Assembly: GCA_965203585.1 (NCBI GenBank)
Contig: CBDBDC010000001.1
Coordinates: forward strand, 4,021 to 68,020
Length of the DNA stretch: 64,000 bases
Direction of reading: 5' to 3'
Source: Candidatus Synoicihabitans sp.
GTDB taxonomy: Bacteria > Verrucomicrobiota > Verrucomicrobiia > Opitutales > Opitutaceae
The position numbers and the translations under genes were made by a program. This document shows, one piece after another, positions 2,156 to 58,705 of the stretch. How positions within the stretch are numbered: position 1 is the first letter of the stretch; the number at the start of each line of letters is the position of its first letter. Under the pieces are notes generated by a model. The model was not told the DNA's origin, searched no databases, and worked only from the letters and a program-made list of their open reading frames with translations.

Positions 2156-3352
2156 TCACTCACCGGAGTACTCGATCAGGGCGCCGTTTGCCTTCAGTGC
2201 GTCGATGTCGTGTTGCGCGACGCCGACCGACTGCAGGATCTCGGCAGAATGCTCACCCAGGCGTGGCGCTGGTGCCCGAATCTCGGCCGGCGTTTCGTCG
2301 AATCTGATCGGCGGCCGCGCCTGACGTACCTGGCCGTGCTCCGCGAAGTCGTAGATGGCGATCGTGTCGTTGGCCAGCACCTGTTCGTGGTCGATCAGTT
2401 CGGTACGTTTCAGCAGTGGCGCCGACGGCACGCCGTTCGCGTCGAGCCTCGGCAGCAGCTCGTCGCGGTCCCACTGGCTGATCTCTTCCGCGGTCATGCG
2501 TTTCCTGAGCTCGGCGTTCCTGAATCGCTCGGTCGTCGTTGCGAATCGCTCGTCATCGATCCATTCGGGTTTGCTCAGCGCCGTGCACATGCCGCGCCAC
2601 TCGGCGTCGGATACTGCGCCGGCGGTAATGTAGCCGGTTTTTGTTTCGTAGATCAGGTCCATCGTGCCCTGATATTTGGTGACGTCGATTTCGTCGCCGA
2701 CAAACGTCAGGCCCGACATGCCTTCCGGCCAGAAGAACGACACCATCGTGTCCAGCATCGACAGCCGCACGTGTTGCCCCTTGCCCATTCGCTCGCGCGC
2801 AAACAGCGCCGACGAGACGGCTTGCGCGGCCGTCAGCGACGTGACCTTGTCGCAGACGATGATCCGGAACATCTTGGGCCGACCCGTTTCACGATCCGCC
2901 TGGATGTCGGTTGCACCGGTCAACGCCTGAATCACGGGGTCGTAGACCCGCTGATTGGCGTACGGTCCGGACTCGCCGAAGCCGCTGATGGACAGGTACA
3001 CCACGTCGGGATTGATTTCGCGCACCATCGGCTCTCCGAACCCCATGCGGTCGATCGCGCCTGGCCTGAAGTTCTGCATGACCACGTCGGCGGTCGCCAG
3101 CAGTTTCATCAGAGGTTCGCGTGTGGCCGGGTCCTTCAGGTCCAGGCACAGGGAACGCTTACCGCGATTACACGAGAAAAAGCCGGCCGTGACGCCGTTG
3201 CGCTTGTTGCCGATGTGCCGCATTTCGTCGCCGCGCGGCGACTCGACCTTGATTACGTCGGCACCCTGATCCGCGAGCATCGCCGCCGCGAACGGGCCGG
3301 ATACCATCGCGGTGAAGTCGACGACGCGAATGCCGTCCAACGGTCCTGGCAT
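2156..3352 (-). CDS. CaiB/BaiF family (class III) CoA-transferase
   Basis: N-terminal hallmark LDGIRVVDFTAMVSGPFAAAMLADQGADVIKVE and a full-length 398-aa family III CoA-transferase-like sequence. Confidence 0.85.
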   Translation of the reverse strand: MPGPLDGIRVVDFTAMVSGPFAAAMLADQGADVIKVESPRGDEMRHIGNKRNGVTAGFFSCNRGKRSLCLDLKDPATREPLMKLLATADVVMQNFRPGAIDRMGFGEPMVREINPDVVYLSISGFGESGPYANQRVYDPVIQALTGATDIQADRETGRPKMFRIIVCDKVTSLTAAQAVSSALFARERMGKGQHVRLSMLDTMVSFFWPEGMSGLTFVGDEIDVTKYQGTMDLIYETKTGYITAGAVSDAEWRGMCTALSKPEWIDDERFATTTERFRNAELRKRMTAEEISQWDRDELLPRLDANGVPSAPLLKRTELIDHEQVLANDTIAIYDFAEHGQVRQARPPIRFDETPAEIRAPAPRLGEHSAEILQSVGVAQHDIDALKANGALIEYSGE

Positions 3353-3492
3353 GGAGACTCCCTCGATTGCTTGGCGGCTGGGCCCGTCAGTTTCCCAGAC
3401 TGCCCGCGCATGTCAAAGCGGGCGCGTGTCCGCTACCCAGTTGCCGAGATTCTTGCGATGCTAGTCCGCTTCGATCGGGTAGGGGGGAACCG

Positions 3493-6400
3493 ATGGCCGT
3501 AACGAGGCTGCTGATTGCCAACCGGGGCGAGATCGCGGTACGCATTGCGCGAGCGGCGCGCGAACTGGATATCACGACAACCGCGGTTTATGCGGAAGAC
3601 GAGGCCGCGTCGCTGCATGTCGTCAAGTGTGATCGATCGGTTGCGCTGGCGGGCGCCGGCGCGCAAGCCTATCTGGACGTTGATGCTCTGGTCCGCGCCG
3701 CACTCGACGACGGCTGCGATGCGCTGCATCCCGGATACGGGTTTCTAAGCGAAAACGCGGCGCTTGCGGACGCCTGCGAAGCCGCCGGCCTGATCTTCGT
3801 GGGGCCGCGGCCCGGGCTGCTGCGGTTGTTCGGCGACAAGGTCCGTGCCCGCGCGGCTGCAAGCGATGCTGGCGTGCCGGTGCTGGACGGCACGACGGCG
3901 GCCACGTCGCTCGACGAATGCCGGAACTTTTTTGCCGCGCATCCGGCAGGCGTCATGATCAAGGCCGTGGCTGGAGGCGGTGGCCGTGGTATGCGCGCCG
4001 TAACCGACGCGGACGCGCTCGATGACGCGTACGAGCGTTGCCGTTCCGAGGCGCGGGCTGCGTTCGGTGACGACGAGGTCTACGTCGAAGAGCTCATCAG
4101 CGATGCGCGCCACATCGAGGTGCAGATCGTCGGCGACGGCGACCGGGTGGTGCATCTGGGCGAACGTGACTGTTCCATTCAGCGCCGGCATCAGAAGATC
4201 GTCGAGATTGCGCCGTCACCGGGTTTATCGGCCGAGATGCGCGACACCGTTGCGCAAGCGGCCGTCGGGTTTGCGTCGGCGGTTGGTTACAGCAGTCTCG
4301 GCACGTTCGAGTTCCTGGTCACCGATTCGCGGGTCGCGTTCATCGAGGCCAACGCCCGGCTGCAGGTCGAGCACACGATCACCGAGCAGGTCACCGGTGT
4401 CGACCTGGTTCGCAGTCAGCTGCTGCTCGCCGGCGGCGGCCGGTTGGGAGCCGGCGATCTTGCGCTGCCGGAAGCTGTGCCTGACGGATTTGCCGTACAG
4501 GTGCGCGTCAACATGGAGCGAATGACCGAAACCGGCGACGTCGTCCCGTCCGGCGGCGTACTGACTGCATTCGAACCGCCGAGCGGACCGGGCGTGCGCA
4601 CCGACACGTTCGGATATGCCGGATACGCGACAAGCCCCCGATACGACTCGCTGCTTGCAAAGGTCATCGGGCATCGTCCGGGCGGCAGCTACGCTGACGC
4701 ACTGAAACGTACCTGTCAGGCACTCCAGGAATTTCGTGTCGACGGCGTAGCCACCAACATCGACTTTGCGCTCGCGGTGCTGACACACGAGGCGGTGGTC
4801 GCGGGCAATTTCAACACGCGCTTTGTAGACGACCACATTGCCGCTCTCGTCAACGGCGTGGCGCACGTCAGGCGCCACTTCCCGGCGGCGCCTGAAGCGC
4901 CGGCAGGTACCGCAGCCGGCGCGACACCGTCGCTGGCCGGCGCGCGGATCGACAGCTCGGATCCGCTGGCGGTGCTCGATTACGGTCAGGTGCAGGCGCG
5001 CGCAGAGGCGCCTGCCGCCGCTGCGTCAGCGGTCGCGCCGGCGGTCGCCGCCGCACCGGACGGCACCGTCCCGGTGACCGCGCCGTTGCAGGGCACCATC
5101 GTGTCACTGGACGTTGCCGAGCAGGATGTCATTGCGGCAGGACAGACCGTCGCGATCATGGAATCGATGAAAATGGAGCACGAGGTTCGCGCCGAGGTTT
5201 CGGGCACGGTCCGGTCCGTTGGCGTTGCGGCGGGTGACACTGTTTACGAGGGGCACGCGCTGTTGTTCGTCGAAGCGGGTGATGTCGACGTAGACGTTGC
5301 CACGACCGGAGAAGACGTCGACCTCGACTACATCCGTCCGGACCTGGATGAGGTTGCGAAGCGCCACGACAAGACACTGGACGCCGCGCGACCCGAAGCG
5401 GTTGCGCGGCGACACGGAAAGAACCAGCGAACGGCGCGCGAAAACGTCGAGCATCTGTGCGACCCCGGCTCGTTCGTCGAATACGGCTCGCTGGTGCTTG
5501 CCGCGCAGCGCCGCCGCCGCAGTATCGAAGACCTGATCGACAAGACCCCGGCTGACGGCATGATTACCGGAGTCGGAGCGATCAATGGCGATCTCTTCGG
5601 TGACCCGGCCGCGCGCTCGGTGGTCATGGCGTACGACTACACGGTGCTCGCCGGCACGCAGGGCGGCCAGAACCATCGCAAGACCGATCGCATGATCGAG
5701 GTCGCCGAGTCCGGGACCATGCCGATGGTCCTGTTTGCCGAAGGCGGCGGCGGTCGACCCGGCGACACCGACGGCATTGGCACGAGCGAGCAGCGCACGT
5801 TCTCGCGGTTTGCCCAGCTGTCCGGCCTGGTGCCAATGATCGGAATCACGTCAGGCCGCTGTTTTGCCGGCAACGCATCGCTGCTCGGTTGCTGCGACGT
5901 GATCATCGCAACCGCTGGCTCGAACATCGGCATGGGCGGTCCGGCGATGATCGAAGGCGGCGGGCTCGGCATCTATGCGCCGGAAGAGATCGGGCCGATG
6001 GACGTGCAGGTGCCGAATGGCGTGGTCGACGTGCTGGTCGACGACGAAACGGCGGCTGTGGACGCGGCTAAGCGCTACCTCTCCTATTTCCAGGGACGGC
6101 TGCCTGCGTGGGAGGCGCCCGACCAGCGCGCGATGCGGCGCATAGTTCCTGAAAACCGGTTGCGCGTTTACGAAGTTCGCGACGTCGTCGCGACGCTCGC
6201 CGATGAAGGCTCGATCATGGAAATCCGTCCGGAATTCGGCACCGGCATGATCACATCGCTGATCCGGGTCGAAGGCCGAGCTGTTGGCGTCATCGCCAAC
6301 AATCCCAGACATCTCGGCGGCGCGATAGACAGTGACGGCGCCGACAAGGGCGCGCGGTTCATGCAGCTGTGCGACGCCTTCGACGTTCCGCTGCTCTATC

Positions 6401-6879
6401 TGTGCGACACGCCCGGCATCATGGTTGGTCCCGAAATCGAACGAACGGCGCTCGTGCGTCACTCATCCCGCATGTTCGTCATCGGTGCCAATCTGTCGGT
6501 GCCGTTTTTCACGGTCATACTGCGCAAGGCATATGGACTCGGCGCCATTGCGATGGCCGGCGGCAGCTACAAGGTCCCCACGTTCAGCGTGTCGTGGCCA
6601 ACGGGCGAATTCGGGGGCATGGGACTCGAGGGGTCCGTGAAACTCGGGTATCGCAACGAACTCGCGGCCATCGAGGACCCGCAGGCGCGCGCCGCGAAAT
6701 ACGAGGAAATGGTTGCCCGCGCGTACGAGTCGGGCAAGGCGTTGAACCACGCGTCGCTGTTCGGCGTCGACGACACGATCGATCCCGCGGATACGCGGTG
6801 GTGGCTCGCAAGCCTGCTGAATTCGATCCGCACCGAACCGCGGCGGGGTAAAAAGCGTGCCGCGATAGATGCCTGGTAG
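3493..6879 (+). CDS. Single-chain acyl-CoA carboxylase (biotin carboxylase + BCCP + carboxyltransferase fused)
   Basis: Biotin carboxylase N-terminus (RLLIANRGEIAVRIARAAREL). BCCP motif AIMESMKMEHEV with the biotinyl-Lys codon at 5170-5172. Carboxyltransferase domain (YDYTVLAGTQGGQNHRKTDR ... FAEGGGGRPGD). The ATG at 3493 follows the SD-like AGGGGGGAA; the track ORF starts at 3367. Confidence 0.85.
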   Translation: MAVTRLLIANRGEIAVRIARAARELDITTTAVYAEDEAASLHVVKCDRSVALAGAGAQAYLDVDALVRAALDDGCDALHPGYGFLSENAALADACEAAGLIFVGPRPGLLRLFGDKVRARAAASDAGVPVLDGTTAATSLDECRNFFAAHPAGVMIKAVAGGGGRGMRAVTDADALDDAYERCRSEARAAFGDDEVYVEELISDARHIEVQIVGDGDRVVHLGERDCSIQRRHQKIVEIAPSPGLSAEMRDTVAQAAVGFASAVGYSSLGTFEFLVTDSRVAFIEANARLQVEHTITEQVTGVDLVRSQLLLAGGGRLGAGDLALPEAVPDGFAVQVRVNMERMTETGDVVPSGGVLTAFEPPSGPGVRTDTFGYAGYATSPRYDSLLAKVIGHRPGGSYADALKRTCQALQEFRVDGVATNIDFALAVLTHEAVVAGNFNTRFVDDHIAALVNGVAHVRRHFPAAPEAPAGTAAGATPSLAGARIDSSDPLAVLDYGQVQARAEAPAAAASAVAPAVAAAPDGTVPVTAPLQGTIVSLDVAEQDVIAAGQTVAIMESMKMEHEVRAEVSGTVRSVGVAAGDTVYEGHALLFVEAGDVDVDVATTGEDVDLDYIRPDLDEVAKRHDKTLDAARPEAVARRHGKNQRTARENVEHLCDPGSFVEYGSLVLAAQRRRRSIEDLIDKTPADGMITGVGAINGDLFGDPAARSVVMAYDYTVLAGTQGGQNHRKTDRMIEVAESGTMPMVLFAEGGGGRPGDTDGIGTSEQRTFSRFAQLSGLVPMIGITSGRCFAGNASLLGCCDVIIATAGSNIGMGGPAMIEGGGLGIYAPEEIGPMDVQVPNGVVDVLVDDETAAVDAAKRYLSYFQGRLPAWEAPDQRAMRRIVPENRLRVYEVRDVVATLADEGSIMEIRPEFGTGMITSLIRVEGRAVGVIANNPRHLGGAIDSDGADKGARFMQLCDAFDVPLLYLCDTPGIMVGPEIERTALVRHSSRMFVIGANLSVPFFTVILRKAYGLGAIAMAGGSYKVPTFSVSWPTGEFGGMGLEGSVKLGYRNELAAIEDPQARAAKYEEMVARAYESGKALNHASLFGVDDTIDPADTRWWLASLLNSIRTEPRRGKKRAAIDAW

Positions 6880-8897: not shown

Positions 8898-10232
8898 CTA
8901 CGCGGGCAGGCGCACCGGCAATTCGCGAATGCCGTTGATGAAACTCGAACGCAGATAGACCGGGTCGCCGACGACGTCGACCCTCGGAAAACGCTTGACG
9001 ATTTCCTCCCAGATGACGCGCAGCTGCATTTCGCCCAGCCGGTTGCCGAGGCAGCGGTGTATGCCGAACCCGAACGACAGATGCTGGCGAGCGTTGTCGC
9101 GATCGATCAGAAACCGATTGGCGTCTTTTATTGCTTCCTCGTCGCGGTTGCCTGACAGGTACCACATAGCCACGCGATCGCCGGCTTTGATTTGCTTGCC
9201 ACCCAGTTCCACGTCGGCCAGCGCGGTGCGCGCCATGTGCGCAACCGGCGACTGCCAGCGGATGATCTCGGGCACCATGTTCGGGATCAGCCCCGGGTTG
9301 TCCATGAGCTTCCGGTATTCGTCCGGATTCTGATTCAACGCGAGCACGCCGCCGGAGATCGAGTTGCGCGTCGTATCGTTGCCGCCGACGATTAGCAGCA
9401 GGATGTTGCCCAGATACTCGTTTGGCGGCATGTTTTTCGTGGATTCGCCGTGCACGAGCATCGAGATGAGATCGTCGCCGGGTTCGTCCTGCGCGGCGCG
9501 TTCCTTCCAGACCTCGTCGAAATACTGCCAGCACTTCCACAGCTCCTGAAATCCTTCTTCGACGGTATCGAAGTGCTCGGGATTGCTGAGGTTCTGTACG
9601 GAATCGGACCAGTAGATGAGTTTGTGACGGTCTTCCTGCGGCACGTCGAACAGCGTTGCCAGCATCTGGGCGGTCAACTCGACCGACACCTCCCGTACCC
9701 AGTTGAACTCTTCGTTGCGCGGCAGGCCGTCCAGAATGTTCCCGGCGCGCTCGCGGATGACGTTCTCGAGACCGGCGATCTTGCGCGGGCTGAACATCGG
9801 AGCGACGACCTTGCGTTGTTCATCGTGTTTCGGTGGGTCTTCCTGGATGAACATCGGCAGCGAGAAGTTCGGATCCGGCTCCGGTTCCTCGATGCCGCCC
9901 AGCGCGATGCCGCCACGCCGCGAATCCGAAGAGAACAGTTCATGGTGGCTGTCGACGAATTTGATGTCGTGGAAGCGGGTCACGGACCAGTACGGACCAA
10001 CCATGCTGGTTTCGGTTAGATGGACCGGGTCTTCCGCGCGCAGGCGCTCGAAGTACGGCATCTGCGTGCCGGCCTCGAACAGGTCGGGATGCGCCGGGTC
10101 GAGTTCGTCGAGCGGAATGCTCGCCACGTCGCGATGCACGTCGATTGCCCATTCGGCCTGCAGCGCTTCGTTCGAAAGCGACATCATCTCGGCGCGGTTG
10201 ATTGGCTGGGGGGATTCCTTGGATTCGGCCAT
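8898..10232 (-). CDS. Cytochrome P450, CYP153-like (alkane/terminal hydroxylase type)
   Basis: Heme-binding loop HLSFGFGIHRCLGNRLGEMQL, and a tail (IWEEIVKRFPRVDVVGDP...LPVRLP) that resembles CYP153 enzymes. The ATG at 10232 is preceded by GGAGAG; the longer track ORF upstream is not P450-like. Confidence 0.85.
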   Translation of the reverse strand: MAESKESPQPINRAEMMSLSNEALQAEWAIDVHRDVASIPLDELDPAHPDLFEAGTQMPYFERLRAEDPVHLTETSMVGPYWSVTRFHDIKFVDSHHELFSSDSRRGGIALGGIEEPEPDPNFSLPMFIQEDPPKHDEQRKVVAPMFSPRKIAGLENVIRERAGNILDGLPRNEEFNWVREVSVELTAQMLATLFDVPQEDRHKLIYWSDSVQNLSNPEHFDTVEEGFQELWKCWQYFDEVWKERAAQDEPGDDLISMLVHGESTKNMPPNEYLGNILLLIVGGNDTTRNSISGGVLALNQNPDEYRKLMDNPGLIPNMVPEIIRWQSPVAHMARTALADVELGGKQIKAGDRVAMWYLSGNRDEEAIKDANRFLIDRDNARQHLSFGFGIHRCLGNRLGEMQLRVIWEEIVKRFPRVDVVGDPVYLRSSFINGIRELPVRLPA

Positions 10233-10430
10233 GATGCTCTCCGTTGGCTCACACGGTGTTGGCGTCGCGCCTGCCAGGCAGCACGATCCACCATTCGATT
10301 TAATCAGGTTATTCTTTTGCGTGACACAGATGAAGGTGATAACCGGCCAGCATGACCGTCTCGGGTGCCCACACGCGGTACCCGACCAGAGGCTGGTCAC
10401 ATCCGCGGAAATAGCAGGAAGGGGAGCGGA

Positions 10431-11657
10431 ATGACTGATGCGCACGAAGGCGGCGAGGACTATCTGTTTGGCGGTCTGAAAGTGCTCGATGTTGGCACCT
10501 GGATCGCCGCACCGGTTGCGACGACGATGCTTGCCGACTATGGCGCCAGCGTCATCAAGGTGGAAATGCCCGGGCATGGTGACGCCTACCGGCACTTTTC
10601 GGGGATGCCGGGCACGCCCACCGCCGACGTCAACTACTGCTGGCTCATGGACGGTCGCAACAAGCGCTCCATAACGCTGGACCTGAAAAGCGGCGCCGGT
10701 ATCAGGATCCTGCACCAGCTGATCGGCGAGTGCGATGTCTACGTCACCAACCACCCACTGCCGCTGCGGCGCGAGCTGGGCCTGACGTATGACGACCTCG
10801 CGGCGCTCAATCCGAAGCTGATCTATGCATCGTTGACCGCATATGGAGAGCAGGGTCCGGAACGAGATCGGGAAGGGTTCGATCTGGTTGCGTACTGGTC
10901 CCGGCCGGCGCTGATGGATCTCGTTCGCAGTTCGCCCGAAACGCAGCCCGCGCACTCGTTACCAGGCATGGGCGATCACCCGACCGCGGTGTCGATGTAC
11001 GCGAACATCGTCACGGCGCTGTTGCGCCGCGAACGTACCGGCAAGGGCAGCCACGTACACACGTCCCTGATTGCGAACGGGCTGTGGTCGGCGTCCTGCA
11101 TCGCGCAGGCGCGGCTGTGTAACGCGGATTTTTCGGCATTCCGCCACCCGCAGCACATGGCGTTTACCCGCGGACTGTATCAGACGAGCGACAGCCGCTG
11201 GCTGCAGTTCACGATGGTCCGAACGCCCGAGGAGCAGCAGGCGCTGCTCGCAGCCGTCGGCGGACTGCACCTGCTGGAGGATCCCCGGTTCGCCACGGCG
11301 GAAGACCGTTTTGCGAATGGCGCGGAGATGGTCGCTGCTGTACGGCCGCTGCTGGCCGCGCGGTCGAGCGAGGAGTGGATGGCCGTGTTCCGCGACGCTG
11401 GCGTCCCGGCGGCGCTGATCGGGGTGCTGGATGATCTGCCGCACGATCCTCAGATCGCGATCAACGACATGGCGCCGGCACCGGTGGACGACGTAGGCGC
11501 GCAACGCGTGATCAAACACCCGTTGAACATCGAAGGTCTGCCGCGGGTCGGGGTCACCCGGGCGCCGGAGATCGGCGAACACAGCGTCGCGGTGTTGACC
11601 GAGCTCGGCTACACGGACGAGCAGATTGCCGAGCTCGCCCTCGACGACGTGATTTAA
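10431..11657 (+). CDS. CaiB/BaiF family (class III) CoA-transferase
   Basis: LKVLDVGTWIAAPVATTMLADYGASVIKVEMPGHGD hallmark. The ATG at 10431 follows GGGGAGCGGA. Confidence 0.85.
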   Translation: MTDAHEGGEDYLFGGLKVLDVGTWIAAPVATTMLADYGASVIKVEMPGHGDAYRHFSGMPGTPTADVNYCWLMDGRNKRSITLDLKSGAGIRILHQLIGECDVYVTNHPLPLRRELGLTYDDLAALNPKLIYASLTAYGEQGPERDREGFDLVAYWSRPALMDLVRSSPETQPAHSLPGMGDHPTAVSMYANIVTALLRRERTGKGSHVHTSLIANGLWSASCIAQARLCNADFSAFRHPQHMAFTRGLYQTSDSRWLQFTMVRTPEEQQALLAAVGGLHLLEDPRFATAEDRFANGAEMVAAVRPLLAARSSEEWMAVFRDAGVPAALIGVLDDLPHDPQIAINDMAPAPVDDVGAQRVIKHPLNIEGLPRVGVTRAPEIGEHSVAVLTELGYTDEQIAELALDDVI

Positions 11658-12823
11658 CCGGCGGCGGCCGGAAACACCCGCAGGAAATTCTCGCTGTAGA
11701 ACCTGGTGCGCACCGACTCGTCGACGTTGCCGAGCGATTGCTCGAAACGCCCCAGCGGATTGCGTCCGCCTTCGGGATGTGGGTAGTCGCTGGAGAACAG
11801 GTACAGATCCGGACTCGACTGCGCGACGAGTTTACCGATGTCCTCGTAAACGTACGGGGTGAACGCGAACTGGGTCGCGATCTGTTCCGACGGCTTGCGT
11901 GACAGCGCGGCCAGCTCCACATCGCTCTTGCGCCAGATGTCGACGATCCAGTCCAGCCGATCCAGCATGGCCGGGACCCAGCCGGCGCCGAGTTCGACGC
12001 TGGCGCCGGTCAGCGTAGGGAACCGTTCGAAGACGCCGTCCAGCACCATCATGCTCAGGAATCGTTCCGCCATGTGGTGCACGCTCGTCATGTCCTTGCC
12101 GCGGACGTTTTCCCCGCCGCCGAGCCAGTCCTTCGGCAGCGGCCGGCCGTTGTTCATCCACGCTTTCGAAACCTGAAGTGCATCGCCGCCGATGTGAATG
12201 ACGAACGGGATGCCAGCCTCCTGCAGGCGCGCCCAGAACGGGTCCAGGTCGTCGTGCCCGGGAGAGCGCCCGCCGCAGTCGCGATGCGGAACCCACACCG
12301 CGCCGCAGCCGTCGGCCAGCACCGTGTCGAGTTCGGCGAGTGCGCGTGCCGGGTCGTCGAGCGTGATCGCGGCTACGCCCATCAGCCGCTCGTCGGCCGC
12401 GCAGAACGCGTGCATCGCGCGGTTGTGCGCGCGGGCGGCGCCGTAGCGGACGTCCAGATCCGTGCGAGTGGAAAACACCATGCCTTCGCTGACAGACGCG
12501 AACACGAGCTGCTTGCGGAAACCAAGCAGGTCCAGTACGCGGCTGCGCTCCTCGGCGTTGAACGCGCCGGGCGCGTCGTAGCCTTTCGGGCCGCGCAGAA
12601 TGTCGTCGCCCATCTCCAGCGCTTTCTGCACATCGGCTTCCAGGTGCCGGCCGCCCTGCGCGACCAGCGTGTCCAGATTGCGCTGCAACCCGGAGTTGGC
12701 GCCGAAGTCGATCGGCGGCAGCGCGTCGCGAATGTGCGGGTCTGCAAAGTCGGTCAGGAACGTTGGCAGTTCCATGATGTGGCTGTCTGCGTCGTAGAGC
12801 ACGCGGTCCGCTGCGTAGGTCAT
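11654..12823 (-). CDS. Amidohydrolase-2 family metal-dependent hydrolase/decarboxylase
   Basis: DADSHIMELP near the N-terminus and FSSDYPHPEGG near the C-terminus, typical of the ACMSD/amidohydrolase_2 family. The stop overlaps the convergent CoA-transferase stop by 4 nt. Confidence 0.75.
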   Translation of the reverse strand: MTYAADRVLYDADSHIMELPTFLTDFADPHIRDALPPIDFGANSGLQRNLDTLVAQGGRHLEADVQKALEMGDDILRGPKGYDAPGAFNAEERSRVLDLLGFRKQLVFASVSEGMVFSTRTDLDVRYGAARAHNRAMHAFCAADERLMGVAAITLDDPARALAELDTVLADGCGAVWVPHRDCGGRSPGHDDLDPFWARLQEAGIPFVIHIGGDALQVSKAWMNNGRPLPKDWLGGGENVRGKDMTSVHHMAERFLSMMVLDGVFERFPTLTGASVELGAGWVPAMLDRLDWIVDIWRKSDVELAALSRKPSEQIATQFAFTPYVYEDIGKLVAQSSPDLYLFSSDYPHPEGGRNPLGRFEQSLGNVDESVRTRFYSENFLRVFPAAAG

Positions 12824-12969
12824 ATTGCCTCCTCAATCCTTTGAATGCCGTTGTGCGAGCGTAGGCGAATCGACGGTGCCGGGCAAATACCGGTTCGTCC
12901 GGCCGGCGCGTGCACTGCAAGCCGGCAATGCGATACCCTGTGCGCTGCCGTGGAAAACGGGAGGGAGGC

Positions 12970-13446
12970 ATGGCGGCCAAGCTCGAGCCCCGGGATCAGT
13001 TCCCGGATCTGGCGCTGAACGTCGCGGGCGGGGGCGCCGTGGCGCTACCCGGCGACATTCAGACCGACTATGCGCTGGTGCTCTTTTATCGCGGCCACTG
13101 GTGACCGTTCTGTCGCCGTTTGTTAAACGGCTATCAGGAGCGTCTGGCACAGTTCAGGGATCTCGGTGTGTCTCTGTTTGCCGGCACCGTCGACTCCGAG
13201 GAGGACACCCTCGAGGTCGGCAAGGACCTGGACTTTCCGGTAGCGTACGGCATGACTCGCGCGGACGGGGACGCAATCGGCGCCTGGTGGGAAGAACGCC
13301 GCGATCACATTCAACCGTCCGAGTTCCTGTTGCGCGGCGACGGCCGAGTCCTTGCATCCACGTACAGCAATTCTCCGGTTGGCCGCATGGATCCGGGCGA
13401 AACTGCCAGGCTCATCGACTTCATCGCGTCGATGGCCCGCAAGTGA
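12970..13446 (+). CDS. Peroxiredoxin-like (AhpC/TSA, thioredoxin-fold) selenoprotein; in-frame TGA 13102-13104 read as Sec
   Basis: Track ORFs 12910-13104 and 13120-13446 share a frame and are separated only by TGA. Read through, they give LVLFYRGHW-U-PFCRRLLNGYQERLAQFRDLGVSLFAG, where the TGA sits where AhpC/TSA proteins carry the peroxidatic Cys (W-C-P-x-C). GGGAGGGAGG SD before the ATG at 12970. A hairpin lies 10 nt after the TGA. Confidence 0.75.
13115..13131 (+). promoter_or_regulatory. Candidate bacterial SECIS hairpin for the peroxiredoxin-like gene
   Basis: GCCGTTT-GTT-AAACGGC, a perfect 7-bp stem (or 6 bp with a UGUUA loop). It starts 10 nt after the UGA, and the G/U-containing apical loop is about 18 nt downstream. 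Hand-folded only. Confidence 0.5.
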
Positions 13447-13488
13447 TGATGGTCGAGCCTCAGCGGCAGCGCCGGTAGTAGCTGCGCG

Positions 13489-14709
13489 ATGCTGGACGCG
13501 GACGTACCCGAACACCTGGCGACACTCGAGTGTCCGGTTTACGAGCCGACCGCCGCAGTTGCGGGAACCGCGCTCGACGCGAGGCGCGTCGCGCTGATCT
13601 CGTCCGCCGGACTGATGCATCAGGGTGATCCGCCGTTCGGCTTCGGTGCCGCCGATTACCGGGTCATCGACGCCGACTCGCCGGTACCCGTGTTGATGAC
13701 GCACGTATCCACGAACTTCGACCGTACCGGTTTCGCGCAGGACGCCAACGTCGTACTACCACTCGACCGGCTGCGGGAGCTGGTGGCGGACGGCGTCATT
13801 GGCAGCGTCGCCCGGTTTCACTATTCGTTCATGGGCGCAACCGCGCCGGACCTGTTCGAGGAACCTGTCACCAGGGTGGCGGGGCAGCTTGCTGCCGACG
13901 AAGTCGACCTGGCACTGTTGATACCCGTGTGACCGCTCTGTACGCGCGCCGTGTGCGGGCTGGCTCACTACCTCGAACGCGCGGGTGTTCCGACCGTCGT
14001 CATCGGTCTGATACCACAGCATGTGCGGCGCATGATGCCTCCGCGGGCGCTGCTGGTACCGTTCGAACTCGGGCGGCCAATTGGCCCCCCCGGGGCGCCC
14101 GCGCTGCAGCGCCGCGTGCTGACAGCGGCCCTCGAGCTCGGCGCGACTGCCCCTGCCGACCCGGTCATCGACACGTTCGAACTCGAGCCCGGAGAACGAC
14201 TGCCAGCAGCGCAGACCCAAGGATGGGCGTGTCCAGTATCGTTCGCGACCGCCGTGGACGACGAGGCGTCCACCGCAGAGCGATTGGCTGCGGAGGTACA
14301 GGCGCTTGCACCATGGTATGCGCAGGCCGTCCGCGAACGTGGCCGCACCACGGCCGGCGCATCGGGGCTCGATTTCGAAGCGATTGCGCGCTGGCTTGGC
14401 GATCTGAACGACGTTGCCGGCGCTGACGACAAGGCGCCCGAAGCGGGGCAGGACACCGCGCCGGCTGACCTTCCGTTTGGCCTGGCGCAGACGCTCAAGC
14501 TGGCAGTCGAAGATCTGAAAGCGTTTTACGTCGAAGCGGCAACCACCCAGCCCACGTCAGCGAGCGCGCCGGTCCTGGACTGGATGTGGAACGACACGCT
14601 GCTTGCGCGCGTGCTCCGCACGCTCGCGGCGCGGCTGAGCGACCATCCGGATCGTCAGCTTGCGCTTTACGCAAGTCTGACGTTCGTGCCGCGGGAACGG
14701 ATGGCATAG
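13489..14709 (+). CDS. GrdB/PrdB-like (glycine/sarcosine/betaine/D-proline reductase component B family) selenoprotein; in-frame TGA 13930-13932 read as Sec
   Basis: Track ORFs 13489-13932 and 13951-14709 share a frame. Read through: VDLALLIPV-U-PLCTRAVCGLAHYLERAGVPTVVIGL. The N-terminal part (HVSTNFDRTGFAQDANVVLPLDRLRELVADGVIGSVARFHYSFMG) resembles the selenoprotein B family as I recall it. Confidence 0.7.
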
Positions 14710-14783
14710 CCCGCGTCGGTTGGTGCGGCGGATCCTTGGAGCTGAAACTTTGCAACTGAATCATGTCACTGGAGGAGCAGACG

Positions 14784-15317
14784 ATGATTGATTACCACGA
14801 TCCACGGGCGGAGACCGCCGGCGAGGTTGAGCCATATGCGCTCAGCGTCGACCTGGGCCGGCTCAACGAGGCGCGTATCGGATTTCTGGCAAACGGCTTC
14901 CCCGACTCCGATCGATTTCTGGAGAAGGTCGCCGAGGTCATGAGCGAGCGCCTCGACGGCGTTCAACACGTGCACGAAAACAAAGGCAACGCATCGATCC
15001 CGGCACCGGATGTGCTGCTCGATTCGATGCAGAACCAGTGCCAGGCGGCAATCGCCGCCTATGGTCACTGAGGCAGCTGCACAACCGGCACCGTGCGTGA
15101 CGGCATTGCACTGGCTCGAAGGGGAGTGCCCGTGGTGGCGCTTGTTACCGAGGAATTCTGGCCGCAGGGTGACTTCGTGGCTGCGTCGCTCGGTATGCCG
15201 GACGTTCCACGGGTGAAGCTGCCGCATCCTGTTGCGGGTACCGGCGAAGCGAACCTGCGCCGCGTCGCGGAAGCGATCGTTCCGGAGATCATTGCCGCTC
15301 TGGAAGGCGCCCGGTGA
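14784..15317 (+). CDS. UGSC-motif selenoprotein (small GrdB-like redox module); in-frame TGA 15069-15071 read as Sec
   Basis: Track ORFs 14763-15071 and 15093-15317 share a frame. Read through: AAIAAYGH-U-GSCTTGTVRDGIALARRGVPVVALVT. The ATG at 14784 follows GGAGGAG. The Sec loop resembles that of the preceding gene. Confidence 0.65.
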
Positions 15318-16405
15318 GCGGAATGTTGCAGTCGGCAGACGAAGCTGCTGCGCTCGAGAACCTGCACGCGCTCGGCTGCACTGATGGACTGCCCGTCGTG
15401 GTTCCAACCGTGGACCGCGTCGCGCGCATGGTACTCGCGACCGGGTACGACGCCGACATGGTGCTCGGAGAAATGGGACCCGGCAACGGGATTGCGACCG
15501 TCGAACAGGTTGCGGTCGCCGCGGTCATGGCGGGATGTCTACCCGACTACATGCCGCTCGTCGTCGCCGCCGTGCGCGCAGTGATTGCGCCGGAGTTCGA
15601 TCTTACCGAGATGCAGTCGACGACACATTGCACGGCGCCGCTCGTGATCGTCAACGGCCCGGCGCGCCAGACCTGCGGTCCCGTTGCGTCAGGATTTGGC
15701 GCGCTCGGACCGGGTCACCGAGCCAACGCCAGCATCGGCAGGGCGCTCAGGCTTGCAATGATGAACATCGGCGGCGCCCGACCCGGGACCTCCGACATGG
15801 CGCTGCTCGGCCACCCGGGAAAATTCACCTACTGCCTGGCGGAAGACGAGGAAACCAGCCCGTTTCCGCCGCTGCATGTAGCGCGCGGTTTCGACCCGGA
15901 CGACAGCGTCGTGACCGTCATCGGCGCGGAAGCACCCCATTCGGTGATCTTCTCGGGCGACGCCGACAATCCCGAGTCGTACCGCGGGTTGATCCACGCG
16001 TTGGCGGTTGGCCTCGCAAACCTGGCGACCAACAATGCCGTTCTGCGGCACGGGTCCGCAACGGTGATTCTGAATCCCGAGCACGCCGACGTGCTGCATG
16101 CCGCCGGTCTGGGGCGCGCGGATATTGCCCGGGCGCTTCACGAGTCCTGCGTTCACTCGATATCCGATCTTGCCGAAGTCGCGCCCGCGTTTGCTGGCCG
16201 CGACGGCGACGACGAACGCAAGCACTGTTTTGACGGTCCCGACGACATCCTCGTTCTGGTCGCGGGCGGTAGCGGGCTGTACTCGATGGTGATGCCGTCG
16301 TGGTGCGCCGGGGCGCACAACAACTCGGCGGTCAGTGTGACGGTGGACGTCGATCAGTTCTGCGAGGTGCCGGGGCTCGGCGAGGCGCTGACGACGGACG
16401 TCTGA
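15314..16405 (+). CDS. Conserved-looking hypothetical protein (363 aa), translationally coupled to the UGSC gene
   Basis: GTGA start/stop overlap at 15314-15317 (alternative ATG at 15323). Long ORF with high third-position GC. I recognise no family (motifs LHALGCTDGLPVVVP, QSTTHCTAPLVIVNGP, GHPGKFTYCLAEDE). Confidence 0.6.
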   Translation: MSGMLQSADEAAALENLHALGCTDGLPVVVPTVDRVARMVLATGYDADMVLGEMGPGNGIATVEQVAVAAVMAGCLPDYMPLVVAAVRAVIAPEFDLTEMQSTTHCTAPLVIVNGPARQTCGPVASGFGALGPGHRANASIGRALRLAMMNIGGARPGTSDMALLGHPGKFTYCLAEDEETSPFPPLHVARGFDPDDSVVTVIGAEAPHSVIFSGDADNPESYRGLIHALAVGLANLATNNAVLRHGSATVILNPEHADVLHAAGLGRADIARALHESCVHSISDLAEVAPAFAGRDGDDERKHCFDGPDDILVLVAGGSGLYSMVMPSWCAGAHNNSAVSVTVDVDQFCEVPGLGEALTTDV

Positions 16406-25586: not shown

Positions 25587-27704
25587 ATGTTGATGATTGA
25601 CCGAAGACGCGGGCCGCGCGCGCCGAACCCGTTGACACCCGCGGTTGCAGGGTGCCTGACAGCGCTCTTCTGCCTCGCCGCGGTGCCCGTCCCCGTCGAT
25701 GCGGACAGCGGCGATCGCATCGAGGAGCTGGTGGTCGTGGCTACCCGCGCGCCGTCGCCGGTATTCGACCTGCCGTACTCAATACACGTGGTCAATCAGG
25801 CCGAGGTGCTTCGGGCATCGCCGCGCACGCTGCCGCAGGCGTTCCGCGACGTCCCCGGAATCATGGTTCAGGAGACGTCGGCGGGTCAGGGTTCACCGTA
25901 CATACGAGGCTTCACCGGGTTCCGCAATCTGTTCCTGATCGACGGCGTCAGGCTCAACAACGCCGTCTTTCGCGACGGTCCCAACCAGTACTGGGCAACC
26001 GTGGACCTGGCCGCGTTGTCGCGCATCGAGGTCATCAACGGTCCGGCGAGCACGTTGTACGGCAGCGACGCGGTCGGAGGAACGGTTAATGCCGTGACGG
26101 CGGACGCGTTCGCCACCGGCAACCAGGCGCGTTACCGGTACGCGTCCGCCGAGCGGTCGAGCGTGCTGCGCGTGGCCACCGGCTTGGCGCTCGGTCCGGC
26201 GACCGCGGTCCGCGTTGGCGCTACCGGCAAGTCGTTCGGCGACCTGAGGGGTGGTGGCGGCGTTGGCCGTCAGGACGGTGTTGGTTATGACGAGTTCGAC
26301 GTCGATCTGAAACTCGCATCCCGTCTCGGCGCGGGGTGGCTGCTGGAAGCGTTTACGCAACACGTCAGGCAGAACAACGTGCCGCGTACGCACCGGACGA
26401 CCGACGCGGTCAGCTGGCGCGGGACGACGGTTGGCAGCGATCAACGGCGCGAGCTGGATCAGGAGCGCAGTCTGTCGTATCTCCGTCTTGGCAACGGCGA
26501 CCTCGACGGCGCGATCAGCCGCGCGTCGGTGACCGTCTCCTACGCCGGCATGGAGGAAACGCGCGACCGCATTCGCGGCAGCGGCAGCCGCGAAAAGCAG
26601 GGGTTTGAGGTCCGGACGCCGGGTCTGTCGCTGGCGCTCGAGAGTCCGACCGCAATTGGCGACCTGAGCTACGGCGTCGAGTACTACGACAATCGGGTGG
26701 ACTCCTTCAGCACCCGCAACCCGGTTCAGGGACCGGTAGGTGACGACGCAACCTATTCGACGGTCGACGCCTTCCTCAGGGATCGCTTCAGCGTTGGCGA
26801 TCGAGCGGCATTTGTTGCCGGAATCCGCCACACACGGGCACATCTGGATGCGAACAGCGTCAGCGAGCCGGTAACCGGCGAGCGCATCGCCATTGACGAC
26901 CGCTGGCACGCAACGGTCGTGAGCCTGAACGCGAGCTACGTGCTCCTCGACGACCGGTTGATGCTGTTTGGCGGCGTCAGCGAATCCTTCCGGGCGCCGA
27001 ACCTGTCCGATGTCACGCGCTTCGATTCGGCGCGCAGCAACGAATTCGAGATACCGGCGCCAGGTCTCGACCCGGAAACCTTCCTTACGGCCGAACTGGG
27101 CCTGCGTTGGCGGGGCGAGTCGTCGAGCGTCACGGCGGCAGTCTTCCGGACAGAAATCACCGATCTGATTCAGCGTTTTCCGACCGGCCGAATCGTCGAC
27201 GGCGAGGTCGAGATCACCAAAGACAACGTTGGCGACGGCGCCGTCCACGGCGTCGAACTGACCGGGTCGTATGCGCTCGACGAACAGTTGACGCTGTCGG
27301 CGTCGGCATCGTGGATGGACGGCGAAGTCAGCAACTACGTCACTACCGGCGGGCCGCCGTTTACGATGGTCGACGAGCCGCCAGATCGCCTGATGCCGCT
27401 GACGGGATCGGTGTCGCTGCGCTGGCAGTCTCGTGATACGAAGCGCTGGATCGAGGGCCGGCTGGCGTATGCTGATGCCGCTGATGATCTGTCGACCCGC
27501 GATGCGGCCGACACTAGTCGCATCCCGCCCGGCGGTACGCCGGGGTATGCGGTCGTCCACGTTGGCGGCGGCGTGCGGTTCACCGATCGCCTGGGCGTGC
27601 ACCTGACCGTGGACAACGTCCTGGACAAGGACTACCGCGTGCATGGATCGGGTACCAACATGCCGGGCATCAACGCAATGCTGACGCTCGACGTCGAGTT
27701 CTAA
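25587..27704 (+). CDS. TonB-dependent outer-membrane receptor
   Basis: Signal peptide. Plug domain (EELVVVATR ... GIMVQETSAGQGSPYIRGF ... RIEVINGPASTLYGSDAVGGTVN). Beta-barrel ending in the terminal aromatic ...MLTLDVEF. The start is uncertain (GTG 25563 or ATG 25587). Confidence 0.85.
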   Translation: MLMIDRRRGPRAPNPLTPAVAGCLTALFCLAAVPVPVDADSGDRIEELVVVATRAPSPVFDLPYSIHVVNQAEVLRASPRTLPQAFRDVPGIMVQETSAGQGSPYIRGFTGFRNLFLIDGVRLNNAVFRDGPNQYWATVDLAALSRIEVINGPASTLYGSDAVGGTVNAVTADAFATGNQARYRYASAERSSVLRVATGLALGPATAVRVGATGKSFGDLRGGGGVGRQDGVGYDEFDVDLKLASRLGAGWLLEAFTQHVRQNNVPRTHRTTDAVSWRGTTVGSDQRRELDQERSLSYLRLGNGDLDGAISRASVTVSYAGMEETRDRIRGSGSREKQGFEVRTPGLSLALESPTAIGDLSYGVEYYDNRVDSFSTRNPVQGPVGDDATYSTVDAFLRDRFSVGDRAAFVAGIRHTRAHLDANSVSEPVTGERIAIDDRWHATVVSLNASYVLLDDRLMLFGGVSESFRAPNLSDVTRFDSARSNEFEIPAPGLDPETFLTAELGLRWRGESSSVTAAVFRTEITDLIQRFPTGRIVDGEVEITKDNVGDGAVHGVELTGSYALDEQLTLSASASWMDGEVSNYVTTGGPPFTMVDEPPDRLMPLTGSVSLRWQSRDTKRWIEGRLAYADAADDLSTRDAADTSRIPPGGTPGYAVVHVGGGVRFTDRLGVHLTVDNVLDKDYRVHGSGTNMPGINAMLTLDVEF

Positions 27705-52157: not shown

Positions 52158-52235
52158 CTGCTGGCTTCGCGTTGCGAACTGGATCCAATTCTCAGCATCC
52201 TTTCAGCCTGCATCGAAAGGACGACCCATTGTTGA

Positions 52236-58410: not shown

Positions 58411-58705
58411 GAAACTGGAGGCGACCCACCCAGCCACACCTCGGCACCCGAGTCCGCTGCTACCGTTGCTCCCTTCCGGGCCTGGCGGAGTTCACAACAT
58501 ATCGTCGCGAAGGGACCGAGGTGGGTCACCATAGGGGCGCGTATGCTAGCCGAAGCGGTGCCGGATGCACAGTGGGAAAGGTACTGCGTGCGGCGTCGGT
58601 ATCGCGATATGTCGCGGCAATTTAGTGCCGACGGGCCTTGTCTGCACAAACGCCCGACCGAATCATCCTGCCCCTCCCGTTCGCGGCGGCGCCTCGGCGC
58701 GCCAC

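What the first reader, a model, noticed from the sequence alone, without database searches (positions are those of the whole stretch)
12970..16405. Three back-to-back selenocysteine-type genes plus a coupled unknown: candidate undescribed selenoprotein redox/reductase module
Three consecutive plus-strand genes are each split in the ORF track by exactly one TGA, and the downstream piece continues in the same frame each time. Every TGA falls in a U-x-x-C redox context: GHW-U-PFC (13102), IPV-U-PLC (13930) and YGH-U-GSC (15069). The genes are tightly packed, with gaps of 42 and 74 bp. A fourth 363-aa ORF starts in a GTGA overlap with the third gene, so this looks like one operon. The composition (a thioredoxin-fold Prx-like protein, a GrdB/PrdB-like protein and a small UGSC module) echoes the logic of glycine/D-proline reductases. 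However, no grdA, grdC/D/E, prdA or trxB-like genes are present. The neighbourhood is also aerobic-type (P450, LLM oxidoreductase, biotin carboxylase). I infer a distinct, uncharacterised Sec-dependent system rather than a canonical Grd/Prd cluster.
Basis: partly seen in the sequence, partly recalled or inferred. Interest (0 to 1): 0.9.

Follow-up and report, generated by a model that had tools for sequence, protein, structure and literature searches.

The report
Three selenoprotein genes; UGSC-partner cassette
Three neighbouring genes really do encode selenocysteine proteins, all from already catalogued families, but only the last one (UGSC) is consistently tied to the unknown gene after it, forming a widespread two-gene unit of unknown function in marine bacteria.

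Summary
Three co-directional genes each carry one in-frame TGA in a U-x-x-C motif, and coding continues downstream.

All three are genuine Sec codons:
- The aligned codon is TGA in 85/85 UGSC orthologue sequences and in 80/80 metagenomic PrdB-like loci. Cys forms also exist in each family.
- Each TGA is followed by a conserved hairpin with a GU loop.
- In UGSC a 20-nt stretch is invariant at synonymous sites in 79 distinct sequences.

The families are not new. They are Prx-like (AhpC/TSA, UxxC), a GrdB/PrdB-like selenoprotein B family protein, and UGSC (PF24696/NF041046).

The four-gene "module" is not conserved:
- Across 80 species, only UGSC and the 363-aa ORF ("D") travel together (79/80). 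They are single-chain fusions in other lineages.
- The Prx-like gene is never near them, and the PrdB-like gene rarely is (4/80).
- The PrdB-like gene has no conserved neighbour, and no PrdA/GrdE partner.

D belongs to a very large family (4,674 clusters at 50% identity). It has no Pfam model, no PDB relative and no known function.

Best reading: UGSC is a flavodoxin-like selenol/thiol subunit serving D, a Cys-dependent enzyme of unknown substrate. The other two selenoprotein genes sit beside it only in this lineage.

Sec machinery was not found in the window.

The parts
12824..12969 (+). Divergent intergenic region upstream of gene A. It is the likely promoter region, and it ends in the GGGAGGGAGG ribosome-binding site before ATG 12970.
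   Evidence: The upstream gene (Amidohydro_2, 11654-12823) is on the minus strand. No sigma-70 consensus was found, so the promoter is inferred only.
12970..13446 (+). Gene A: a 158-aa Prx-like (AhpC/TSA) selenoprotein with motif GHW-U-PFC.
   Evidence: Pfam AhpC-TSA scores 51.2 bits against a cutoff of 26. One search found full-length homologues (156-163 aa) and many ~95-113-aa post-TGA fragments. Sec homologues L091-L095 sit in unrelated contexts.
13102..13104 (+). Sec codon (UGA) of gene A.
   Evidence: TGA is kept in homologues L091-L095 and in the A-like genes of L152 and L173.
13115..13131 (+). bSECIS hairpin of gene A: GCCGUUU-GUU-AAACGGC.
   Evidence: Predicted by the fold. It is conserved in L091-L095, with a compensatory change U-A to C-G and one U.G wobble. 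The loop keeps UGUU.
13489..14709 (+). Gene B: a 406-aa GrdB/PrdB-like 'selenoprotein B family' protein. It has motif IPV-U-PLC and a conserved C-terminal extension with no domain model.
   Evidence: Pfam GRDB scores 31.5 bits against a cutoff of 22. TIGR04483 PrdB scores 92.6 bits, below its cutoff of 300.
13930..13932 (+). Sec codon (UGA) of gene B.
   Evidence: TGA in 80/80 metagenomic loci and in L054, L087 and L089. Cys (TGC/TGT) in L090, L044 and L064.
13944..13960 (+). bSECIS hairpin of gene B: GCGCGCC-GUG-UGCGGGC.
   Evidence: 86% of pair cells are paired, against 30-58% for slid controls. The loop GU is invariant in 80/80. Synonymous-site entropy is 0.17-0.55 bits here against 1.5-1.9 elsewhere. 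The Cys forms lack the element.
14784..15317 (+). Gene C: UGSC-family selenoprotein, 177 aa from ATG 14784 (the ORF opens at ATG 14763). Motif YGH-U-GSC.
   Evidence: Pfam PF24696 UGSC scores 156 bits against a cutoff of 25. NCBIfam NF041046 scores 109.6 bits against a cutoff of 125.
15069..15071 (+). Sec codon (UGA) of gene C.
   Evidence: TGA in 85/85 orthologue sequences from 80 species loci plus L001-L006.
15084..15103 (+). bSECIS of gene C. The 20-mer ACCGGCACCGUGCGUGACGG is invariant. It forms the hairpin CCG(G)CAC-CGUGC-GUG(A)CGG at 15085-15103.
   Evidence: Third-position entropy is 0 at codons +5..+10 in 79 distinct orthologues. It is 1.5-1.9 bits at other invariant-residue fourfold codons. 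RNAalifold predicts the hairpin.
15314..16405 (+). Gene D: a 363-aa protein (360 aa from ATG 15323) of a large uncharacterised family. It is the obligate partner of UGSC.
   Evidence: More than 6,169 close homologues and 4,674 50%-identity clusters. UGSC lies immediately upstream in 79/80 species. UGSC-D fusions exist. No Pfam or PDB match.

Best explanation
The region holds three genuine selenocysteine-encoding genes from three already catalogued selenoprotein families: a Prx-like AhpC/TSA protein (WUPFC), a GrdB/PrdB-like selenoprotein B family protein (VUPLC), and a UGSC-family protein (HUGSC).

Each gene carries its own bacterial SECIS hairpin starting 11-14 nt after the UGA. This is shown.

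Only one functional coupling is conserved. The UGSC gene and the following 363-aa ORF D form a self-contained two-gene cassette found throughout marine and aquatic Pseudomonadales-type Gammaproteobacteria. In other lineages they are fused into one polypeptide. This is shown.

The proposed mechanism is inferred:
- D is the catalytic or substrate-binding subunit, and its chemistry depends on near-invariant Cys75 (AVMAGC) and Cys174 (GHPGK..C.AENE).
- UGSC is a small flavodoxin-like-fold subunit. Its Sec103/Cys106 pair cycles between selenol/thiol and selenenylsulfide, either to reduce D or a D-bound intermediate. UGSC is then re-reduced by the general thiol system.

The Prx-like and PrdB-like genes are stand-alone selenoproteins elsewhere. 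Here they are probably co-transcribed neighbours, not obligate parts of one enzyme.
For: Sec codons:
- TGA in 85/85 UGSC sequences and 80/80 B sequences.
- Cys forms occur at the same column in B (L090, L044, L064) and UGSC (L178 GHCGSC; fusions DCGSC). Full-length A homologues (P0374-P0391) are taken to be Cys forms.

SECIS:
- The UGSC 20-mer is invariant at synonymous sites (entropy 0 against 1.5-1.9 bits).
- In the B hairpin 86% of pair cells are paired against 30-58% for slid controls, with an invariant GU loop.
- The A hairpin shows a compensatory change.

Families: Pfam AhpC-TSA, GRDB and UGSC all score above their cutoffs.

UGSC-D coupling:
- UGSC is immediately upstream of D in 79/80 species; the one exception is cut by a contig end.
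- These are the only flanking genes conserved across 81 loci.
- The pairing persists at 45-50% D identity.
- Natural UGSC-D fusions exist. In some fusions a Trx-like CPTC/CPTS domain replaces UGSC.
- The fusion model has pLDDT 87 and pTM 0.84.

Fold: the UGSC domain matches flavodoxin-like folds.

Conserved D residues: Cys75 and Cys174 are at least 90% conserved in 46 diverse members.

Independence of A and B.
Against: - No selA, selB, selD or tRNA-Sec was found in the 64-kb window. Sec decoding in this genome is therefore inferred from conservation, not shown.
- Co-transcription of the four genes is not tested. The tight spacing and lack of terminators leave room for a lineage-specific functional link.
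- Weak recurrent proximity exists:
  - A B homologue lies within 8 kb of UGSC-D in 4/80 species (L054 is adjacent, on the same strand, and a Sec form).
  - Sec-containing A-like genes lie beside B in L152 and L173.
- D has no informative structural relative. The best PDB hit has TM 0.27, so its chemistry is a guess.
I therefore could not measure whether the UGSC redox motif faces Cys75 or Cys174.
Confidence: 0.75

Rival explanations
1. All four genes form one dedicated Sec-dependent reductase system with Grd/Prd-like logic. The PrdB-like protein would be the substrate-activating selenoprotein. UGSC would be a GrdA-like carrier. The Prx-like protein would be the reductant. D would be the missing partner subunit.
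For: - The genes are co-directional, with gaps of 42 nt and 74 nt and an overlap or 6 nt, and no terminator between them.
- In L054 a Sec-form B homologue sits directly downstream of D. B homologues lie within 8 kb of UGSC-D in L044, L064 and L079.
- Sec A-like genes sit next to B in L152 and L173. A UGSC-like gene lies 5 kb from B in L101.
- UGSC and B align locally around UxxC...GVP.V.
Against: - A is within 8 kb of D in 0/80 species. B is absent from that range in 76/80.
- D is near B in 0/80 metagenomic loci, and no flanking gene of B recurs in more than 5/80 loci.
- A and B homologues sit in unrelated contexts.
- No PrdA/GrdE-type (PF09338) or GrdA, GrdC or GrdD homologue was found.
- The UGSC-B profile match is not significant (hhalign probability 5.6%).
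Confidence: 0.12
2. UGSC-D is a substrate reductase in which Sec itself attacks a D-bound substrate. The resulting selenoether-type intermediate would be resolved by Cys106, as in PrdB/GrdB chemistry. In this view UGSC is not merely a disulfide reductant for D.
For: - Sec is kept in 85/85 sequences of this clade despite its cost.
- The motif is U-x-x-C, as in PrdB/GrdB.
- D is extremely conserved (about 70% identity across families), as expected for an enzyme with a defined small-molecule substrate.
- Conserved Arg136, Asn138, Arg143 and Glu177 are suggestive of a polar substrate site.
Against: - In some fusions an ordinary Trx-like CPTC or CPTS domain replaces UGSC. This fits generic thiol-disulfide exchange better.
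- Cys-form UGSC proteins are common in distant lineages.
- No pyruvoyl-type partner is present, and no substrate clue comes from the neighbours. Only an SDR gene recurs downstream, in 24/81 loci.
Confidence: 0.2
3. The TGAs are ordinary stops, sequencing errors or pseudogene lesions, and the halves are independent or dead ORFs.
For: No Sec machinery was seen in the window. Public gene callers split all three genes at the TGA.
Against: - TGA is conserved at exactly the same codon in 85/85 and 80/80 independent sequences.
- Protein conservation is strong on both sides of each TGA.
- Cys occupies the same column in homologues.
- RNA hairpins are conserved at synonymous sites.
Confidence: 0.02

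Closest known systems
UGSC family (seleno)protein (Pfam PF24696; NCBIfam NF041046; 'UGSC-containing protein' of Zhang & Gladyshev 2008, PMC2398784)
   Same: Gene C matches the Pfam model at 156 bits and carries the U-G-S-C motif and a SECIS. This family is one of the most abundant marine selenoprotein families: 255 Sec forms against 21 Cys forms in GOS, and 8.2% of marine selenoprotein genes (PMC9402790). A UGSC/'Unknown_1' fusion was already reported (PMC2398784).
   Different: The literature calls it 'likely Trx-like fold'. The model of a UGSC-D fusion instead matches flavodoxin-like folds. The near-obligate pairing with gene D as a two-gene cassette is not described in the papers read, including the 2026 review's operon section (PMC13188914). 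That 'Unknown_1' equals D is inferred, because the figure is an image.
D-proline reductase PrdB / glycine reductase GrdB (selenoprotein B family, PF07355; TIGR04483, TIGR01918)
   Same: Residues 27-216 of gene B align to PrdB (E 2.4e-26). B has Sec in a U-x-x-C motif at the equivalent position and a SECIS directly downstream.
   Different: - B scores below all NCBIfam cutoffs (92.6 against 300; 49 against 65.45).
- It has about 190 aa of family-specific C-terminal extension, with conserved W-x-C-P-V and DLKxFYxEA.
- It has no PrdA/GrdE, GrdA, GrdC/D or PrdC neighbour here or in 80 other loci.
- It occurs in aerobic-type genomes.
Prx-like 1 selenoproteins (AhpC/TSA, UxxC) of the Sargasso/GOS selenoproteomes
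   Same: Gene A is a PF00578 member with Sec in a W-U-P-F-C motif. Full-length homologues exist.
   Different: It is not a canonical peroxiredoxin (TxxC/U peroxidatic motif). All NCBIfam peroxiredoxin equivalogs score far below their cutoffs.
Known selenoprotein operons (grdA-grdB, prdB-prdC, frhA-frhD-hdrA-glpC, SAO, Tso; PMC13188914)
   Same: Several selenoprotein genes lie side by side on one strand.
   Different: None of the listed operons contains this gene set. The Tso proteins have different motifs (LULAxC, UxxxxU, GxxU). Unlike those operons, this A-B-C arrangement is not conserved across genomes.

Membership tests
UGSC family (PF24696 / NF041046) | Match to the family profile above the curated cutoff | tested here: met
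   Pfam PF24696 scores 156.1 bits against a cutoff of 25, covering 11-181 of the protein and 2-171 of 172 profile positions. The NCBIfam equivalog NF041046 scores 109.6 bits, below its cutoff of 125. The query carried Cys in place of Sec.
UGSC family (PF24696 / NF041046) | U/C-G-S-C redox motif with Sec encoded by TGA | tested here: met
   YGH-U-GSC at 15069-15071. TGA in 85/85 orthologue sequences.
Bacterial selenoprotein gene (any family) | SECIS stem-loop shortly downstream of the UGA, with G/U in the apical loop | tested here: met
   Hairpins start 11-14 nt after the UGA in all three genes, with GU in the loop. They are conserved at synonymous sites and partly compensatory. No Rfam SECIS model matches.
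Bacterial selenoprotein gene (any family) | Cys-containing homologues at the Sec-aligned column | tested here: met
   B: L090, L044 and L064 have TGC/TGT. UGSC: L178 and the fusions have Cys. A: full-length 156-163-aa homologues exist, but the column was not aligned explicitly because one search failed.
Bacterial selenoprotein gene (any family) | Genome encodes selA, selB, selD and tRNA-Sec | not testable with these tools
   None was found in the 64-kb window (30 ORFs scanned). The rest of the genome is not available.
D-proline reductase PrdB / glycine reductase GrdB | Score above the equivalog or subfamily cutoff | tested here: not met
   TIGR04483 scores 92.6 against 300. TIGR01918 scores 49 against 65.45. 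TIGR01917 scores 46 against 602. Only the broad Pfam GRDB model passes, at 31.5 against 22.
D-proline reductase PrdB / glycine reductase GrdB | Adjacent pyruvoyl proprotein (PrdA/GrdE) and GrdA, GrdC/D or PrdC partners | tested here: not met
   No such domains were found in the window's neighbours. In 80 metagenomic loci, no flanking gene recurs in more than 5. The contexts of L087, L089 and L090 are unrelated.
AhpC/TSA (PF00578) Prx-like | Profile match above cutoff, with the redox residue at the N-terminus of helix 1 | tested here: met
   PF00578 scores 51.2 bits against a cutoff of 26, covering 8-127 of the protein and 2-121 of 124 profile positions. The motif is W-U-P-F-C.
Conserved multi-selenoprotein operon (as for SAO/Tso) | The same gene set recurs together across genomes | tested here: not met
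   A is within 8 kb of D in 0/80 species and B in 4/80. D is near B in 0/80 loci.
UGSC-D two-gene cassette (proposed here) | UGSC gene immediately upstream of, or fused to, a D-family gene | tested here: met
   Seen in 79/80 species. It is the only conserved flank. It persists in distant homologues L177 and L178. Fusions are shown.

The most novel reading that the evidence does not exclude
UGSC plus D is a two-subunit selenoenzyme that has never been characterised. It would consist of a flavodoxin-like Sec subunit and a catalytic subunit with no detectable relative in Pfam or the PDB. It would perform a reductive reaction on a small molecule in aerobic marine Gammaproteobacteria, an aerobic counterpart of Grd/Prd-type Sec chemistry. 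In this genome it would be wired to a PrdB-like and a Prx-like selenoprotein as one Sec-dependent redox relay.
Probability: 0.2. Interest if true: 0.8.

Novelty: new member of a known kind. Interest (0 to 1): 0.45.

Why it matters
UGSC is among the most abundant selenoprotein families in the ocean, and its function is unknown.

This work shows that UGSC is almost always encoded next to, or fused with, one particular uncharacterised protein. That protein's family has about 4,700 clusters at 50% identity and no domain model. The result gives a concrete, testable handle on UGSC: co-express the pair, trap the selenenylsulfide partner, and look for a substrate.

It also corrects the fold assumption for UGSC (flavodoxin-like, not thioredoxin-like). 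In addition, it provides an invariant 20-nt SECIS signature that can be used to find and correctly annotate these genes, which public gene callers routinely split.

The three-selenoprotein cluster itself is an annotation curiosity, not a new system.

Tried and rejected
- **Tso 'three selenoprotein operon' and SAO (PMC13188914).** Their motifs and families differ, so this is not either of them.
- **Canonical Grd/Prd cluster.** No partner genes are present here, or around 80 B homologues.
- **UGSC as a mini-GrdB/PrdB.** BLASTP E = 0.2. hhalign aligns 25 columns around UxxC with P = 0.007 but probability 5.6%. Homology is not demonstrated.
- **Identifying D by sequence.** No hit in Pfam (46 diverse members, E <= 1), NCBIfam or a PDB profile search.
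- **Identifying D by fold.** The best PDB hits are class I fumarate hydratase (E 4e-4, TM 0.27) and Toblerone-fold cyclic amide hydrolases (TM about 0.2). These are too weak to use.
- **PDB relatives of B or UGSC by sequence.** None found.
- **Rfam SECIS families.** No hit.
- **Single-sequence folding z-scores of the 69 nt after each TGA.** Not significant in this GC-rich background. The evidence for the SECIS elements comes from comparative conservation.
- **Identifying the source organism or contig.** The window's proteins are unnamed singletons from one 78-kb NCBI/ENA contig, and exact look-ups failed.
- **Confirming that 'Unknown_1' of the 2008 paper is D.** The supplementary figure is an image.
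- **Other in-frame TGA candidates in the window.** None is convincing.
- **Explicit alignment of Cys forms of gene A.** The call failed because 'U' is not accepted, and I did not repeat it.


Full report
**1. Observation**

Translating the plus strand confirms the anatomy.

- Gene A (12970-13446, 158 aa) has one in-frame TGA at 13102-13104, in GHW-U-PFC.
- Gene B (13489-14709, 406 aa) has one at 13930-13932, in IPV-U-PLC.
- Gene C (14763 or, more likely, 14784 to 15317) has one at 15069-15071, in YGH-U-GSC.
- Gene D (15314-16405) starts at a GTG that overlaps C's TGA stop. An ATG at 15323, used by the public gene call P0001, is an equally plausible start.

The A-B gap is 42 nt. The B-C gap is 74 nt from ATG 14784, which has a GGAGGAG ribosome-binding site upstream. 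The simple scan finds no terminator-like site between the genes apart from the SECIS region of A itself, and it finds no promoter consensus. TGA also ends genes A, C and D, so the genetic code is standard.

**2. Are the TGAs selenocysteine codons?**

Family scans, with Cys substituted for Sec, place each gene in a known family.

| Gene | Pfam result | NCBIfam result |
|---|---|---|
| A | AhpC/TSA, 51 bits (cutoff 26) | peroxiredoxin equivalogs far below cutoff |
| B | GRDB, 31.5 bits (cutoff 22) | PrdB model E 2.4e-26, below every equivalog or subfamily cutoff |
| C | UGSC PF24696, 156 bits (cutoff 25) | NF041046, 109.6 bits (cutoff 125) |

Comparative evidence is decisive.

*UGSC (gene C).* I fetched 80 species loci through gene D. 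The UGSC orthologue has TGA at the aligned codon in 85/85 sequences.

The 20 nt ACCGGCACCGTGCGTGACGG (window 15084-15103) are invariant in 79 distinct sequences, apart from two rare first-position changes (ACC to TCC in 3, CGT to AGT in 1). Third-codon-position entropy is 0 at codons +5 to +10. It is 1.5-1.9 bits at other fourfold codons of invariant residues in the same gene.

RNAalifold folds this stretch into the hairpin CCG(G)CAC-CGUGC-GUG(A)CGG.

*PrdB-like (gene B).*
- 80/80 metagenomic loci have TGA.
- The hairpin GCGCGCC-GUN-NGCG(C/G)GC is 86% paired, against 30-58% for slid controls.
- The first two loop bases (GU) are invariant.
- A few changes are compensatory.
- Synonymous entropy in the hairpin falls to 0.17-0.55 bits.
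- The Cys forms (Falsiroseomonas L090, L044, L064) lack the element.

*Prx-like (gene A).*
- The hairpin GCCGUUU-GUU-AAACGGC is conserved in L091-L095, with a U-A to C-G compensatory change.
- Full-length 156-163-aa homologues and many post-TGA fragments both exist.

*Limits.* Single-sequence folding energies are not significant in this 65% GC background, and Rfam has no matching SECIS model. The case therefore rests on conservation.

No tRNA-Sec, selA, selB or selD lies in the window. The machinery remains untested.

**3. Is it one module?**

No.

*Around gene D.* In the 80 species loci:
- The UGSC gene is immediately upstream of D in 79. The exception, L028, is cut by the contig end, and in L072 the pair is divergent.
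- The A family is never within 8 kb.
- The B family is within 8 kb in only four loci. L054 has it adjacent downstream as a Sec form. L044 and L064 have Cys forms on the opposite strand. L079 has a partial copy on the opposite strand.

*Flank clustering.* Clustering all ORFs within 6 kb of D in 81 loci shows that the two UGSC halves and D are the only universally shared genes. Next is an SDR-like gene downstream, in 24 loci (SDR assignment).

*Around gene B.* In 80 metagenomic loci none has D. One has a distant UGSC-like Sec gene 5 kb away. Two have Sec-containing A-like genes beside B. No flanking gene recurs in more than 5 loci.

*Individual contexts.* Those of A (PDDEXK/UvrD; esterases) and of B (amidases; acetyl-CoA hydrolase and carboxyltransferase; a peptide ABC transporter) are unrelated.

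The A-B-C-D arrangement is therefore specific to this lineage. The closest relative found (L176, D 80% identical) is too short upstream to test it.

**4. The conserved unit: UGSC plus D**

*Size and annotation of the D family.*
- More than 6,169 close homologues, at about 70% identity, all annotated 'hypothetical'.
- 4,674 representatives at 50% clustering.
- No Pfam, NCBIfam or PDB sequence match, even for 46 diverse members or their profile.

*Longer family members*.
- Many are UGSC-D fusions, mostly Cys forms with D-C-G-S-C-T-S-W.
- Some have a Trx-like CPTC or CPTS domain in place of UGSC (P0172, P0204, P0234).
- Some are tandem D-D (P0129).

*Persistence of the pairing.* It holds at 45-50% D identity, with a Sec form in L177 and a Cys form in L178.

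*Conserved residues in D.* Across 46 diverse members, the conserved positions include D24-G-L-P27, C75 (AVMAGC), R136, N138, R143, D161, C174 (GHPGK..C.AENE) and E177.

*Structure.*
- An AlphaFold2 model of window D has pLDDT 79.7 and pTM 0.84. Its PDB matches are weak: class I fumarate hydratase at TM 0.27 and Toblerone-fold hydrolases at about 0.2.
- A model of the natural fusion P0150 has pLDDT 87.3 and pTM 0.84.
- In that model the UGSC domain is an alternating β/α fold that matches flavodoxin-like proteins: MsuE, flavodoxin and WrbA, with TM 0.45-0.5 on the target. This is not the thioredoxin fold suggested in PMC2398784.

**5. Mechanism**

Shown:
- There are three Sec genes, each with a SECIS.
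- UGSC and D are genetically coupled, and sometimes fused.
- Generic CxxC/CxxS thiol-redox domains can replace UGSC in fusions.
- Two Cys residues in D are nearly invariant.

Inferred:
- D is a Cys-dependent enzyme or substrate-binding subunit.
- The Sec103/Cys106 pair of UGSC reduces D or a D-bound intermediate through a selenenylsulfide, which the cellular thiol system then recycles.

A variant in which Sec attacks the substrate directly (PrdB-like chemistry) cannot be excluded. The substrate is unknown. The recurrent downstream SDR is the only contextual hint.

**6. Comparison with the known**

All three selenoprotein families are in the Sargasso/GOS catalogues (PMC2398784) and later reviews (PMC9312934, PMC13188914, PMC9402790, PMC5029168). 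[quoted passage not shown] I infer that Unknown_1 is D, but I could not verify this because the figure is an image.

The 2026 review's list of selenoprotein operons does not include this gene set or a UGSC-partner cassette. Its Tso operon is a different set of families.

Gene B fails the membership tests for true PrdB/GrdB on both score and partners. It is best described as a stand-alone GrdB/PrdB-like subfamily with its own conserved C-terminal domain.

**7. Verdict**

The claim of a distinct, undescribed four-gene Sec system is not supported. The selenoproteins are new members of known families.

What deserves follow-up is the tightly conserved UGSC-D cassette, a common marine selenoprotein tied to a very large family with no model or function. 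Interest is moderate (0.45).

Noticed in passing
window 15084-15103; L007-L086: The 20-mer ACCGGCACCGTGCGTGACGG after the UGSC Sec codon is identical in about 80 species that otherwise differ at most synonymous sites. It could serve as a DNA probe or annotation signature for UGSC selenoprotein genes, which public gene callers split in two.
   Followed up: yes
P0129, P0136, P0139, P0151, P0165, P0191: Some D-family proteins of 710-740 aa are tandem D-D duplications. This suggests that D normally works as a dimer.
   Followed up: partly
P0172, P0204, P0234: In some fusion proteins a thioredoxin/Prx-like domain with CPTC or CPTS replaces the UGSC domain in front of D. This links D to Prx-like domains in general.
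   Followed up: partly
L001-L006 7106-7882; 24 of 81 D loci: A short-chain dehydrogenase (adh_short) gene follows D by about 40 nt on the same strand in roughly 30% of species. It is the only recurrent third gene, and it is absent from this window.
   Followed up: partly
window 14140-14709 (gene B residues ~217-406): The C-terminal half of the PrdB-like protein is a conserved domain (W-x-C-P-V, RG.T, DLKxFYxEA, W..W) with no Pfam model. It defines a subfamily that is almost always a Sec form (80/80 loci).
   Followed up: partly
L152 591-2351; L173: In two metagenomic contigs a Sec-form PrdB-like gene lies next to a Sec-containing Prx-like gene (GYW-U-PFC, GRW-U-PFC). This is a weak hint of a B-A link, or of a general tendency of selenoprotein genes to cluster.
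   Followed up: partly
L072 7383-7898: In this one species the UGSC gene is divergently oriented relative to D, not co-directional.
   Followed up: no
window 8898-10955 (minus strand): This 685-aa ORF has a cytochrome P450 domain only in residues 372-656. The N-terminal ~370 aa have no Pfam hit, so this is either a fusion or an over-extended start.
   Followed up: no
window 2156-6879: A CoA-transferase family III gene lies next to a 1170-aa single-chain biotin carboxylase-BCCP-carboxyltransferase fusion. The homologue of B in L089 also sits beside acetyl-CoA hydrolase and carboxyltransferase genes.
   Followed up: no
window 51040-54275: An IS5-type transposase (DUF772 + DDE_Tnp_1) lies next to a TIR-TPR protein, a possible defence or mobile island. 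An SRP RNA (58425-58521), tRNA-Ser and tRNA-Arg follow.
   Followed up: no
window 27670-33630: A MoxR-type AAA ATPase lies near a 1377-aa VWA-domain protein on the minus strand, forming a MoxR-VWA cluster.
   Followed up: no
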